The position numbers were made by a program, and so were the translations under genes. From the human T2T-CHM13v2.0 reference genome, Homo sapiens: 64,000 nucleotides of DNA. Below are positions 1,407-4,917 of the stretch, in pieces. Below the pieces are notes generated by a model. That model ran no database searches, had not been told where the DNA came from, and was given only the letters and a program-made list of their open reading frames with translations. Location: positions 25,984,001 through 26,048,000 of the forward strand of contig CP068257.2 in the NCBI GenBank assembly GCA_009914755.4. The letters are read 5' to 3'. Position 1 is the first letter of the stretch. Each line of letters opens with the position of its first letter.

Positions 1407-3320
1407 ATAAAGATATATATAGTATATATATACATACACATATATATATCTTTGATAAAGATATATATACACACATATATCTTTGATAAAGATACATATA
1501 CACATATATCTTTGATAAATATATACACACATATATCTGATAAAGCTAGATATATACACATGTATATCTTTGATAAAGAGATATATACACACGTAAATCT
1601 TTGATAAAGATATATATACGCATATATATTTGATAAAGATATATATACGCATATACATCTTTGATAAAGACATATGTAGGCATATACGTCTTAGATAAAG
1701 ACATATATGTAGGCATATACGTCTTAGATAAAGACATATATGTAGGCATATACGTCTTAGATAAAGACATATATGTAGGCATATACGTCTTAGATAAAGA
1801 CATATATGTAGGCATATACGTCTTAAAGATATATATGTAGGCATATACGTCTTAAAGATATATATGTAGGCATATACGTCTTAAAGATATATATGTAGGC
1901 ATATACGTCTTAAAGATATATATGTAGGCATATACGTCTTAAAGATATATATGTAGGCATATACGTCTTAGATAAAGATATATATGTAGGCATATACGTC
2001 TTAGATAAAGATATATATGTAGGCATATACGTCTTAAAGATATATATGTAGGCATATACGTCTTAGATAAAGATATATATGTAGGCATATACGTCTTTGA
2101 TAAAGATATATATGTAGGCATATACGTCTTAGATAAAGATATATATGTAGGCATATACGTCTTAGATAAAGATATATATGTAGGCATATACGTCTTAGAT
2201 AAAGATATATATGTAGGCATATACGTCTTAGATAAAGATATATATGTAGGCATATACGTCTTAGATAAAGATATATATGTAGGCATATACGTCTTAGATA
2301 AAGATATATATGTAGGAATATACGTCTTTGATAAAGATATATATGTAGGCATATACGTCTTAGATAAAGATATATATGTAGGCATATACGTCTTAAAGAT
2401 ATATATGTAGGCATATACGTCTTAAAGATATATATGTAGGCATATACGTCTTAAAGATATATATGTAGGCATATACGTCTTAAAGATATATATGTAGGCA
2501 TATACGTCTTAGATAAAGATATATATGTGGGCATATACGTCTTAGATAAAGATATATATGTAGGCATATACGTCTTAGATAAAGATATATATGTAGGAAT
2601 ATACGTCTTTGATAAAGATATATATGTAGGCATATACGTCTTTGATAAAGATATATATGTAGGCATATACGTCTTAAAGATATATATGTAGGCATATACG
2701 TCTTAAAGATATATATGTAGGCATATACGTCTTAAAGATATATATGTAGGCATATACGTCTTAAAGATATATATGTAGGCATATACGTCTTAGATAAAGA
2801 TATATATGTAGGCATATACGTCTTAGATAAAGATATATATGTAGGCATATACGTCTTAGATAAAGATATATATGTAGGCATATACGTCTTAGATAAAGAT
2901 ATATATGTAGGCATATACGTCTTTGATAAAGATATATATGTAGGCATATACGTCTTAGATAAAGATATATATGTAGGCATATACGTCTTAGATAAAGATA
3001 TATATGTAGGCATATACGTCTTTGATAAAGATATATATGTAGGCATATACGTCTTTGATAAAGATATATATGTAGGCATATACGTCTTAGATAAAGATAT
3101 ATATGTAGGCATATACGTCTTAGATAAAGATATATATGTAGGCATATACGTCTTAGATAAAGATATATATGTAGGCATATACGTCTTTGATAAAGATATA
3201 TATGTAGGCATATACGTCTTTGATAAAGATATATATGTAGGCATATACGTCTTTGATAAAGATATATATGTAGGCATATATGTCTTTGATAAAGATATAT
3301 ATGTAGGCATATATATCTTT
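1407..3320. repeat. AT-rich minisatellite/VNTR of about 60 tandem units; basic units 33 bp (gtcttagataaagatatatatgtaggcatatac) and a 29-bp variant (cttaaagatatatatgtaggcatatacgt)
   Basis: Directly visible head-to-tail repetition. 1407-1690 holds degenerate ~30-33 bp units (…ctttgataaagatatatatacacacatatat…). 1690-3320 is highly homogeneous. Runs of the 29-bp unit (about 1810-1960, 2390-2500, 2670-2790) alternate with runs of the 33-bp unit, giving higher-order structure. Point variants recur (cttag/ctttg; taggcatatac/taggaatatac). The minus-strand ORFs with MPTYISLSKTY… periodicity are artefacts of this array. Confidence 0.95.
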
Positions 3321-3418
3321 CTAAGTGGCATTCATAGCAAAAAAAGATATATATATCTTTATATATATATATATATATAAAGATATATATATCTTTTTTT
3401 GCTATGAATGCCACTTAG
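3321..3418. repeat. Perfect 98-bp AT-rich palindrome: 40-bp arms around a central (TA)9
   Basis: Left arm 3321-3360 is ctaagtggcattcatagcaaaaaaagatatatatatcttt. Centre 3361-3378 is (ta)9. Right arm 3379-3418 is aaagatatatatatctttttttgctatgaatgccacttag, the exact reverse complement of the left arm. The inner arm sequence (aaagatatatat…) resembles the adjacent minisatellite unit. Confidence 0.95.
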
Positions 3419-3611
3419 AAATTTATTCTATTCTCTGAGACTCTCAGTTCATTGACTTTCTCTTCTATAACCACTTTGTTTTCCACTACAACTCTCATGT
3501 CTTATAATAGGCTTAGAACATTGTTTTTTAAACTAGGGAATTAAAAAGAAACAGTATAAAATATTTCCTGAAGGAACATAACGTCTAATAATGAATTATG
3601 CCAATGGATAA

Positions 3612-4917
3612 TTGGACAGATCAAGATGGATCAAAGACTTAACTCTAAGATATAATAGCATAAAAATTATAGAAGACAATATTAGAGAAACCCTTCTAAA
3701 CATTGGCTTAGGCAAAGACTTTATGATCAAGAACCCAAAAGCAAATGTAACAAAAATAAAGATAAATAGATGGGACTTAATTAAACTAAAAGGTTTCCAC
3801 ACAGCAAAACAAATAATCAGCAGAGTTAACAGGCAACCCACAAAGTGGGAGAAAATCTTCACAATCTATACATCTGACAAAGGATTAATATCCAGAATCT
3901 ACAAAGAACTCACACAAATCAGCAAGAAGGAAACAAACAATTCCATCAAAAAGTAGGCTAAGGACATGAATAGACAATTCTCAAATGAAGATATACAAAT
4001 GGCCAATGAGCCTATGGAAAAAAGCTCAACATCACTAATTATCAAGGAAATGTAAATCAAAACCACAATACAATACCACCTTACTCCTGCAAGAATGGCC
4101 ATAATCAAAAAATAATTAAAAAATAGATGCTGTCGTGGATATGATGAAAAGGGAACAATTTTACACTGTTGGTGGGAATGTAAACTAGTACAATCACTAT
4201 GGAAAACAGTGTGGAGATTCCTCAAAGAACTAAAAGTAGATCCACCATTTGATCCAGAAATCACACTACTAGGTATCTACCCAGCAGAAAGGAAGTCATT
4301 ATACAAAAAAGATAATTGTACAGGAATGTTTAGAGCAGAACAATTTGCAATTGCAAAAATATAGGATCAGCTCAAATGCCCATCAATGAACAAGTGGATA
4401 AAGAAAAGTGGATAAAGAAATGTGTGTGTCTGTGTGTATGTGTGTATATATATACGCACACATACACACACACATTTCTTTATACATATATATATATATA
4501 TACACACACATACACATACACACACATACACACACACACACACCATGGAATACTACTCAGTCATGCAAAAGAACAGAATAATGGCATTCAGAAAAACCTG
4601 GATGGAATTGGAGACTATTATTCTAAGTGATGTAACTCAGGGGGATGGAAAATCAAACATCATATCTTCTCACTCAAAAGTGGGAGCTAAGCTATGAGGA
4701 TGCAAAAGCATAAGAATGATACATTGAACTCTGTGGACTCGGGGGAAAGGGTGGGAGGGGTATGAGTGATAAAAGACTACACATTGGGTACAGTGTACAC
4801 TGCTCCAGTGATGGGTGCACCAAAAGCTCAGAAGTCACCACTAAATAACTTATTCATGTAACCAAACACCACCTGCTCCATAAAAAGTTATCAAAATAAA
4901 ACATAAATTAAAATAAG
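3612..4917 (+). mobile_element. L1 LINE 3' portion (ORF2 C-terminal region plus 3' UTR), older L1P/L1M-like, plus strand
   Basis: The ORF 3612-3956 translates to …WIKDL…GKDFM.KNPKA…KI..WDLIKLK.F.TAK…[11 protein letters not shown]…[13 protein letters not shown]…, matching the L1 ORF2 C-terminus. Downstream are the motifs [10 protein letters not shown]…IPFDPAIPLLGIYP and an L1 3' UTR ending in an A-rich tail near 4917. Confidence 0.85.
4418..4547. repeat. Compound (TG/CA)n and (TA)n microsatellite inside the L1 fragment
   Basis: The tract gtgtgtgtctgtgtgtatgtgtgtatatatatac…acacacacacacacacc sits exactly where L1 normally has aaatgtggtatatatacacaatggaatactac, so the short L1 motif appears to have been expanded. 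Confidence 0.85.

What the first reader, a model, noticed from the sequence alone, without database searches (positions are those of the whole stretch)
3321..3418. Perfect 98-bp AT-rich palindrome immediately abutting the minisatellite
Two 40-bp arms are exact reverse complements of one another around a self-complementary (TA)9 centre, with 0 mismatches over 98 bp. A perfect palindrome of this length is statistically extraordinary. In established knowledge, palindromic AT-rich repeats (PATRRs at 11q23, 22q11, 17q11) extrude cruciforms and mediate recurrent translocations and deletions. Long perfect palindromes are also poorly tolerated and often deleted or under-represented in clones and short-read assemblies. 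The inner arm sequence (aaagatatatat…atcttt) looks derived from the neighbouring minisatellite unit. This suggests the palindrome arose by a hairpin or template-switch event at the array boundary. A perfect palindrome next to an expandable AT-rich array is a plausible instability hotspot.
Basis: partly seen in the sequence, partly recalled or inferred. Interest (0 to 1): 0.6.

Follow-up and report, generated by a model that had tools for sequence, protein, structure and literature searches.

The report
Perfect 104-bp AT-rich palindrome, minisatellite edge
A real, perfectly symmetrical 104-base hairpin-forming sequence sits at the edge of a human AT-rich tandem repeat; it is most likely a harmless by-product of a copying slip during DNA replication or repair, and it is too short to count as one of the known translocation-causing palindromes.

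Summary
Positions 3321-3418 are their own reverse complement, and perfect symmetry runs over 3318-3421 (104 bp, 52-nt arms, (AT)9 centre). It overlaps the last 3 bp of a 33-bp minisatellite of about 59 copies. Chance cannot produce it: surrogate sequences reach arms of 11 nt at most.

The inner 54 bp are two direct copies of a self-complementary, core-less minisatellite unit around (AT)9, so they are palindromic without any inversion. Only the outer 22-25 nt per arm need a true inverted copy. The right copy is contiguous with the unique flank, and the left copy joins the array at a 3-nt TTT/AAA microhomology. This fits one template-switch or fold-back event seeded at the (AT)n tract, a known process in primates.

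It is not a PATRR: 104 bp against 187-600 bp, and 81% AT against more than 90%. It is not a mobile element, since it has no target-site duplication and its inner arms are array sequence. It reaches no Rfam gathering score.

A human-gut metagenome contig matches 3388-3842 exactly. That identifies the window as human and confirms the right arm, but not the left arm. Instability is plausible but untested.

Verdict: a new member of a known kind, of modest interest.

The parts
3318..3421 (.). Perfect 104-bp palindrome (52-nt arms, no spacer, 80.8% AT)
   Evidence: It equals its own reverse complement, with the first mismatch at 3317/3422. DNA hairpin energy is -48.9 kcal/mol, z = -19.7.
3318..3342 (.). 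Left outer arm TTTCTAAGTGGCATTCATAGCAAAA: the inferred inverted copy. Its first TTT is shared with the last minisatellite unit (3-nt microhomology).
   Evidence: It is the exact reverse complement of 3397-3421. The 18-mer occurs only at the two arms in the window. The array ends at 3320.
3343..3360 (.). Inner arm AAAGATATATATATCTTT: a self-complementary, core-less minisatellite unit
   Evidence: It equals unit 3291-3320 minus the 12-nt core GTAGGCATATAT. See also the unit map.
3361..3378 (.). (AT)9 centre. It has no G/C in the central 20 bp and is the likely nucleation point for a hairpin or cruciform, and for the template switch.
   Evidence: central 20 bp: 0 G/C; central 60 bp: 4 G/C.
3379..3396 (.). 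Second direct copy of the core-less unit (right inner arm)
   Evidence: AAAGATATATAT starts at 3291, 3343 and 3379.
3397..3421 (.). Right outer arm TTTTGCTATGAATGCCACTTAGAAA: the inferred ancestral copy, contiguous with the unique flank
   Evidence: An independent human-gut metagenome contig, L003, is identical to the window over 3388-3842.
1409..3320 (.). AT-rich quasi-palindromic minisatellite. Units are 33 bp with a 29-bp variant, about 59 copies. Degenerate, older-looking units lie at both ends.
   Evidence: Tandem Repeats Finder reports 1442-3320, period 33, 59.4 copies, 94% matches. See the unit map. Each unit folds as a small hairpin.
3291..3320 (.). Last array unit. It is itself a 30-bp hairpin motif with perfect 13-nt arms and a 4-nt spacer, and it is the sequence relative of the inner arms.
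3422..3611 (.). Unique right flank between the palindrome and a 5'-truncated L1 fragment that starts at about 3612 on the + strand
   Evidence: The ORF at 3612-3956 has thousands of relatives among unnamed ORFs, mostly on short metagenome contigs and some on chromosome-sized NCBI records. Reading it as an L1 ORF2 fragment is my own, by eye.

Best explanation
The palindrome is a by-product of the mutational behaviour of an AT-rich, hairpin-prone minisatellite in the human genome. It is not a functional element.

Inferred ancestral state: the array ran through an (AT)n tract and a final core-less unit (AAAGATATATATATCTTT) straight into the unique flank TTTTGCTATGAATGCCACTTAGAAA.

Inferred event: during replication or break repair, a 3' end finishing in ...ATCTTT at the last array unit left its template. 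It re-annealed through TTT/AAA microhomology to the flank about 100 nt ahead, on the opposite strand or on itself after folding back at the self-complementary (AT)n. It then copied 40 or more nt backwards and returned to the original template inside the (AT)n tract, where the return leaves no scar. One event of this kind gives arms that are perfect from the outset.

Consequences: as single-stranded DNA the sequence folds into a 50-bp stem. In negatively supercoiled duplex it can in principle extrude a cruciform from the (AT)9 centre. At 104 bp, the expected consequences are local and modest:
- length changes of the (AT)n centre, which keep the symmetry;
- slippage deletions of 36, 52 or 88 bp between the direct repeats AAAGATATATAT at 3291, 3343 and 3379;
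- occasional replication pausing.
Recurrent translocation is not expected.

Shown: the sequence, its symmetry, the unit relationship, the microhomology and the folding energies. Inferred: the ancestral state, the direction of copying and all in-vivo behaviour.
For: The palindrome is perfect over 104 bp and is the only long palindrome in the window.

The inner arm equals the last array unit minus its 12-nt core, and the inner 54 bp are two direct copies of a self-complementary unit around (AT)9. Only 22-25 nt per arm therefore need an inverted copy. That is at or below the 28-83-nt template-switch events described for primates in PMC10710096.

The right outer arm runs on into the unique flank, and an independent contig confirms that stretch at 100% identity over 455 bp. 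The left outer arm is wedged between array sequence on both sides. TTT at 3318-3320 belongs both to the array unit and to the palindrome.

There is no target-site duplication, no further copy of the arm in the window, and no related copy in three sequence collections; the only 2 matches there are unrelated.

A second, older TA-centred inverted repeat with unique arms lies at 31794-31923, which shows the process recurs.

Energetics: two hairpins total -97.8 kcal/mol against -107.5 for the duplex, a cost of about +10 kcal/mol before the junction term. [quoted passage not shown]
Against: No outgroup or second haplotype could be examined, so the ancestral state and the polarity (right arm original) rest on parsimony only. 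The mirror-image history fits the junctions equally well.

More than half of the palindrome is low-complexity array sequence. The published template-switch pipeline would filter out a case like this (PMC10710096 excludes events overlapping simple repeats by more than 50%).

The independent contig starts at 3388 and says nothing about the left arm.

No data on polymorphism, breakpoints, transcription or in-vivo structure were available.
Confidence: 0.6

Rival explanations
1. It is a PATRR-like instability hotspot: the palindrome extrudes a cruciform in vivo, is cut at its centre and mediates recurrent deletions or translocations.
For: It is perfect, has no spacer and has a pure (AT)9 centre with 0 G/C in the central 20 bp. 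Central symmetry and central AT-richness are the key determinants of extrusion in PMC1851657. The estimated thermodynamic cost is low, about 10 kcal/mol before the junction term. The adjacent 1.9-kb AT-rich array is also hairpin-prone.
Against: It is 104 bp, whereas PATRRs measure 187-600 bp. [quoted passage not shown] AT content is 80.8%, against more than 90% (PMC4940405). No breakpoint data were available. The human reference holds about 1,500 palindromes of 100 bp or more (up to 4 mismatches allowed), and only about a dozen PATRRs are linked to translocations (PMC7680136, PMC4940405).
Confidence: 0.12
2. Mirror-image origin: the left arm and the sequence to its right are ancestral, and the right arm is the inverted copy. 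Alternatively, the symmetry was built stepwise by quasi-palindrome correction rather than in one event.
For: The TTT/AAA microhomology and the scar-free return inside (AT)n are symmetrical and fit either polarity. The last units of the array become stepwise more palindromic (ACGTC, then ATGTC, then ATATC). That pattern could reflect correction.
Against: It needs an ancestral core-less array unit separated from the array by 22 nt of unrelated sequence, which is less parsimonious. ATATCTTT-type unit ends also occur at the far left end of the array, so the gradient is more simply explained as older units kept at the array edges.
Confidence: 0.15
3. It is an assembly or sequencing artefact, such as a fold-back chimera or a mis-join at a low-complexity site, or a private allele of the sequenced individual.
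For: Palindromes and AT-rich arrays are hard to sequence (PMC4940405). The only independent contig found stops inside the right arm, so the left arm is unconfirmed.
Against: Fold-back artefacts typically give long arms that run to a read end, to my knowledge. Here the arms are 52 nt, with different and sensible sequence on each side: array on the left, and a flank confirmed at 100% identity on the right. The junction uses the natural end of an array unit, and the centre is a natural (AT)n tract.
Confidence: 0.06
4. It is a miniature inverted-repeat transposable element inserted at the array edge.
For: Its architecture is that of a terminal inverted repeat, and its size (about 100 bp) is typical of such elements.
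Against: No direct duplication flanks either the 98-bp or the 104-bp version (flanks are ...ATATC / TTTAT... or ...CTTT / AAAT...). The inner arms are array units, not foreign sequence. The window holds no other copy. To my knowledge human DNA transposons are tens of millions of years old, so a copy with no mismatch at all would be unusual.
Confidence: 0.03
5. It is a hairpin-RNA gene (a microRNA or endogenous siRNA precursor), like other TA-centred palindromes annotated as human microRNAs.
For: As RNA it folds at -72.3 kcal/mol. The best sub-threshold Rfam matches are to palindromic microRNA families. The mir-3688 consensus is itself a palindrome with unique arms around a (UA)n centre. Template-switch hairpins have given rise to at least 18 human microRNAs (PMC10710096).
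Against: No family reaches its gathering score (52.8 against 84, 51.2 against 81, 47.1 against 76). The matches fall on both strands, include plant families, and consist mainly of compensated pairs, so they reflect structure and not sequence. A 50-bp perfect stem with a 4-nt loop departs from the preferred 35-bp stem with a loop of 10 nt or more (PMC10710096). There is no evidence of transcription.
Confidence: 0.04

Closest known systems
Template-switch mutation hairpins in primate genomes (Loytynoja and colleagues; PMC10710096)
   Same: A reverse-complement copy of nearby sequence is made in one step, giving a perfect stem. The stem length of 52 nt lies inside their 30-55-nt class. It arises in non-functional sequence, and the switch points show microhomology.
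   Different: Here the event sits in and next to a tandem array, so over half of the stem is repeat-derived. The self-complementary (AT)n and core-less units make part of the symmetry automatic.
Palindromic AT-rich repeats (PATRR11, PATRR22, PATRR17, PATRR8 and others)
   Same: AT-rich, nearly or fully perfect, without a spacer, with an AT-only centre, in human non-coding DNA, and predicted to form a hairpin or cruciform.
   Different: It is 104 bp against 187-600 bp, and 81% AT against more than 90%. It has no known translocation partner or breakpoint. By the length dependence in PMC1851657 it should extrude much less readily.
Other disease-linked human palindromes (180 bp at Xq27.1; 160 bp upstream of beta-globin; PMC7999016)
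   Same: Single-copy palindromes of 100-200 bp in non-coding human DNA.
   Different: Those are linked to insertions or deletions in patients. No such link is known or testable here.
FRA16B-type AT-rich minisatellites (comparison for the neighbouring array)
   Same: A 33-bp AT-rich unit that forms secondary structure, in an array of kilobase size.
   Different: The unit sequences are unrelated: the best cyclic match is 18 of 33, no better than shuffled units. AT content is 73%, whereas the FRA16B unit is almost entirely A and T. With 59 copies it lies far below the roughly 2,000 copies of expressed FRA16B alleles (PMC2875025).
Rfam families mir-3688, mir-1277 and mir-4536 (TA-centred palindromic microRNA precursors)
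   Same: The same architecture: unique arms around a (UA)n centre, readable on both strands.
   Different: There is no sequence homology, and scores are well below gathering.

Membership tests
PATRR (palindromic AT-rich repeat) | Several hundred bp long (PATRR17-long 187 bp, PATRR11-long 445 bp, PATRR22 about 600 bp) | tested here: not met
   104 bp. PATRR sizes are from PMC1851657.
PATRR (palindromic AT-rich repeat) | More than 90% AT | tested here: not met
   80.8% AT. The criterion is from PMC4940405.
PATRR (palindromic AT-rich repeat) | Nearly perfect palindrome without a spacer, with an AT-rich centre (1-3 G/C in the central 20 bp) | tested here: met
   0 mismatches, 0 spacer, and 0 G/C in the central 20 bp.
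PATRR (palindromic AT-rich repeat) | Lies at the breakpoint of constitutional translocations, and is size-polymorphic in the population | not testable with these tools
   No human variation or breakpoint resource was available, and the chromosomal location of the window is unknown.
Template-switch mutation hairpin | The new sequence is the exact reverse complement of sequence within about 100 nt; stem 30-55 nt; loop in the central third | tested here: met
   Arms of 52 nt, with 25 non-repetitive nt copied exactly and the centre at 3369/3370. The criteria are from PMC10710096.
Template-switch mutation hairpin | The hairpin is absent from the parent or outgroup sequence | not testable with these tools
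   No primate orthologue could be retrieved. The only related contig (L003) is human and starts inside the right arm.
Template-switch mutation hairpin | Not more than 50% simple repeat (the quality filter of the published screen) | tested here: inconclusive
   54 of the 104 bp are (AT)9 plus two core-less array units. The published filter (dustmasker) was not run.
Rfam microRNA families (mir-3688, mir-1277, mir-4536, MIR2593) | Score at or above the family gathering threshold | tested here: not met
   52.8 against 84, 51.2 against 81, 47.1 against 76, and 54.2 against 96.2. The whole window has 0 matches at gathering.
Miniature inverted-repeat transposable element | Target-site duplication flanking the terminal inverted repeats | tested here: not met
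   The flanks are not direct repeats for either the 98-bp or the 104-bp boundaries.
Miniature inverted-repeat transposable element | Multiple dispersed copies in the genome | tested here: inconclusive
   There is no other copy in the 64-kb window. Only unrelated chance matches turned up in metagenome, prokaryote-genome and viral collections. The human genome itself could not be searched.
FRA16B-type rare fragile-site minisatellite (neighbouring array) | A 33-bp AT-rich unit related to ATATATTATATATTATATCTAATAATATATC/ATA, expanded to hundreds or thousands of copies | tested here: not met
   The period of 33 bp is met. The unit is unrelated in sequence (18 of 33, equal to shuffled controls), and there are only 59 copies. 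The reference is PMC2875025.

The most novel reading that the evidence does not exclude
The perfect TA-centred palindrome and its 1.9-kb hairpin-prone AT-rich minisatellite together form an uncatalogued structure-prone locus in the human genome. That would mean a polymorphic site with recurrent centre-break deletions, array expansions or rare translocations. More generally, (AT)n tracts at the edges of AT-rich minisatellites would regularly seed fold-back copying of their flanks, a route by which new PATRR-like palindromes arise and grow.
Probability: 0.08. Interest if true: 0.55.

Novelty: new member of a known kind. Interest (0 to 1): 0.27.

Why it matters
If the reading is right, this locus is a clean, small example of how a perfect palindrome is born. 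Self-complementary (AT)n and quasi-palindromic repeat units supply a fold-back point, and a short template switch copies 22-25 nt of unique flank. Such cases help explain the origin of cruciform-prone sequences and of new hairpin RNAs. They also mark sites where short-read assemblies tend to break. It does not change current understanding. It would matter more only if population or breakpoint data showed real instability here.

Tried and rejected
1. Independent assemblies.
- Exact-pattern scans of metagenome, prokaryote-genome and viral collections with a 28-mer and an 18-mer of the arm gave only two unrelated chance matches. L001 is unrelated, and L002 is a spacer in a CRISPR-like array.
- Exact-protein look-ups of four ORFs in or next to the palindrome found nothing.
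- A homology search with the L1-fragment ORF next to the palindrome found one human-gut metagenome contig, L003. It is identical to 3388-3842 and then continues into a different L1 copy. It confirms the right arm and flank only.
- A second homology search, with peptides translated across the palindrome and the array junction, scored nothing.

2. Known RNA family. Rfam gave nothing at gathering. The sub-threshold microRNA matches were rejected as structure-only.

3. Larger inverted duplication. The left and right flanks of the array show no similarity above shuffles.

4. Mobile element. Rejected: no target-site duplication, and the inner arms are array units.

5. FRA16B relationship of the array. 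Rejected.

6. Locating the window in the genome. There is no CpG island and no convincing non-repeat ORF. A full-text search for the unit sequence gave one unrelated paper. The chromosomal position remains unknown.

7. PMC1310899, on the evolution of the NF1 palindrome, is not held.

Full report
**The observation**

The sequence at 3321-3418 is exactly its own reverse complement. The symmetry is slightly larger than reported. It runs without a mismatch over 3318-3421, which is 104 bp with 52-nt arms and no spacer. The first mismatch is at 3317/3422. The centre, 3361-3378, reads (AT)9.

Tandem Repeats Finder places a 33-bp minisatellite at 1442-3320, with 59.4 copies and 94% matches. The palindrome therefore abuts the array and shares its last three bases.

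A census of perfect inverted repeats shows this to be by far the longest in the window. The runner-up is a pure (TA)17 at 31864-31897. In 100 Markov surrogates of the window the longest perfect arm averaged 8.2 nt, with a maximum of 11. The chance of matching only the outer, non-repetitive 25 nt is about 4e-15 per site. As single-stranded DNA it folds into one continuous 50-bp stem at -48.9 kcal/mol, z = -19.7.

**Where it is**

The window starts with an AluY-like element, which I identified by eye. It also contains L1 fragments.

A contig from a human-gut metagenome assembly (L003: ENA ERZ980513, run ERR2045086) is identical to the window over 3388-3842, 455 bases. It then continues into a different L1 copy. 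This indicates that the window is human DNA. It also independently confirms the outer right arm and the flank.

The contig begins inside the right arm, so it says nothing about the left arm. No other independent sequence could be found. The chromosomal position could not be determined: there is no CpG island, no Rfam match at gathering, and no convincing non-repeat ORF.

**Anatomy**

Splitting the array into units gives this string:

FGHIJKLMN DDD O BBBB AABAC AAAAAAEA BBBB APAEC BBBB AAAACAACCAAACCCQ R S T

- The middle is homogenised, with 33-bp A and C units and a 29-bp B variant.
- Both ends carry degenerate units that end in ATATCTTT.
- Every unit is a small quasi-palindrome, AAAGATATATATG-TAGG-CATATACGTCTTT.
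- The last unit, R (3291-3320), has perfect 13-nt arms.
- R minus its 12-nt core GTAGGCATATAT is exactly the inner arm AAAGATATATATATCTTT.

That inner arm is itself an 18-bp palindrome. The inner 54 bp (3343-3396) are two direct copies of a self-complementary unit on either side of a self-complementary (AT)9. They are therefore palindromic without any inversion having occurred.

Only the outer 22-25 nt of each arm (CTAAGTGGCATTCATAGCAAAA, plus TTT) require a true inverted duplication. The right copy runs straight on into unique flank. The left copy lies between the last array unit and array-derived sequence. TTT at 3318-3320 belongs both to the array unit and to the palindrome, which is a 3-nt microhomology.

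**Most likely history and behaviour**

The simplest account is a single template switch, or a fold-back during break repair:

1. A 3' end finishing in ...ATCTTT leaves its template.
2. It pairs through TTT/AAA with the flank about 100 nt ahead, on the other strand or on itself.
3. It copies 40 or more nt backwards.
4. It returns within (AT)n, where the return leaves no scar.

This is the mechanism described for primate genomes in PMC10710096. That study reports events of 28-83 nt and more than 6,000 new hairpins with 30-55-nt stems.

The polarity, with the right arm as the original, rests on parsimony. The mirror-image history fits the junctions equally well.

Perfection dates the event only loosely. 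At roughly 0.5e-9 substitutions per site per year (my own figure, not a tool result), 104 sites stay unchanged with probability about 0.7 over 6 million years and about 0.05 over 58 million years. Length changes of the central (AT)n do not break the symmetry.

A second TA-centred inverted repeat with unique arms lies at 31794-31846 and 31871-31923. Its arms pair at 79% over 53 nt, and it folds at -32.1 kcal/mol, z = -9. This suggests that such events recur around (TA)n tracts.

**Comparison with known systems**

PATRRs are defined as several hundred bp long, more than 90% AT, nearly perfect, spacer-free, and located at translocation breakpoints (PMC4940405). This palindrome meets the symmetry and AT-rich-centre criteria, with 0 G/C in the central 20 bp. 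It fails on length (104 bp against 187-600 bp) and on AT content (80.8%).

In PMC1851657 only PATRR22 (about 600 bp) and PATRR11-long (445 bp) extruded cruciforms at physiological salt and were unstable in wild-type E. coli. The 187-bp PATRR17-long, which is nearly perfect, was negligible in both respects, although it did suffer slippage deletions between direct repeats. [quoted passage not shown]

My energy estimate is two hairpins at -97.8 kcal/mol against a duplex at -107.5 kcal/mol. That is a cost of about 10 kcal/mol before the junction term. Extrusion is thus thermodynamically cheap, but the published length dependence argues for a weak effect.

The direct repeats AAAGATATATAT at 3291, 3343 and 3379 predict slippage deletions of 36, 52 or 88 bp. 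The 88-bp deletion would recreate the inferred ancestral arrangement.

**Rivals considered**

- Mobile element: unlikely. There is no target-site duplication, the inner arms are array units, and the window holds no other copy.
- Known RNA gene: not supported. Sub-threshold Rfam matches to palindromic microRNA families, both animal and plant and on both strands, are dominated by compensated pairs and fall well below gathering. They do show that TA-centred palindromes of the same design have been annotated as microRNAs.
- Larger inverted duplication: rejected. The array flanks are unrelated to each other.
- FRA16B: the array unit is unrelated to it (PMC2875025).
- Assembly artefact: cannot be excluded without long-read haplotypes. 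It is unlikely given the short arms and the sensible, partly confirmed flanks.

**How unusual it is**

A published catalogue of the human reference, which allows up to four mismatches, lists 783 palindromes of 100-200 bp and 718 longer than 200 bp. The longest are mostly AT repeats (PMC7680136). A perfect 104-bp palindrome with unique-sequence arms is therefore uncommon but belongs to a known class, and the mechanism that makes such structures is known.

**Verdict**

Membership of the PATRR family is not met, and the hotspot claim is untested. This is a new member of a known kind, of modest interest.

Noticed in passing
window 31794-31923: A second, older TA-centred inverted repeat with unique arms (GTCTTACAGCATTGAAAAGCTATAT / ATATAGCTTTTCAACACTGTAAGAC), 79% complementary over 53 nt, around a TA-rich spacer that includes (TA)17. 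Its DNA fold is -32.1 kcal/mol, z = -9. It suggests that (TA)n tracts repeatedly seed inverted copies of their flanks.
   Followed up: partly
window 31889-31937 and 32024-32072: A 49-nt direct repeat (90% identity, 135 bp apart) that includes the right arm of the second inverted repeat. The arm sequence therefore occurs three times locally, twice direct and once inverted.
   Followed up: no
window 1409-3320: The minisatellite has higher-order structure. Three runs of four 29-bp units (BBBB) are each followed by similar strings of 33-bp units, and degenerate ACACAC-core units lie at the left end. Each homogenised unit carries a CpG (ACGT), which is lost stepwise in the last two units (ACG, then ATG, then ATA).
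   Followed up: partly
window 2732-3414, both strands: ORFs of 199-217 aa run through the array and the palindrome. They exist only because the 33-bp period is a multiple of three and contains no stop codon in several frames. They are not genes.
   Followed up: yes
window 4431-4543: A compound microsatellite, (GT)n-(TA)n-(AC)n, forms an inverted repeat with 14-nt perfect arms simply because GT and AC runs are complementary. This is a trivial route to palindromy, distinct from the finding.
   Followed up: partly
L003 (ENA ERZ980513, human gut metagenome contig k127_1070132), 1-854: Human host DNA assembled in a gut metagenome. It is identical to window 3388-3842 and then switches to a different L1 copy at about 85% identity, so the contig appears to be chimeric across an L1 repeat. 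Its end falls inside the palindrome's right arm.
   Followed up: partly
L002 (PJEL010301194.1) 330-530: The 18-nt arm sequence occurs by chance as part of a spacer between direct repeats (GGTCCACCCCCACGTGTGTGGGGAAAAC) in what looks like a CRISPR array on a metagenome contig. It is unrelated to the finding.
   Followed up: no
window 3300-3440 (Rfam sub-threshold output): Covariance models of many single-hairpin microRNA families, plant and animal, give E-values near 1e-10 on both strands for this perfect AT-rich hairpin, although there is no sequence homology. E-value-only Rfam matches to long perfect hairpins are not evidence of family membership.
   Followed up: yes
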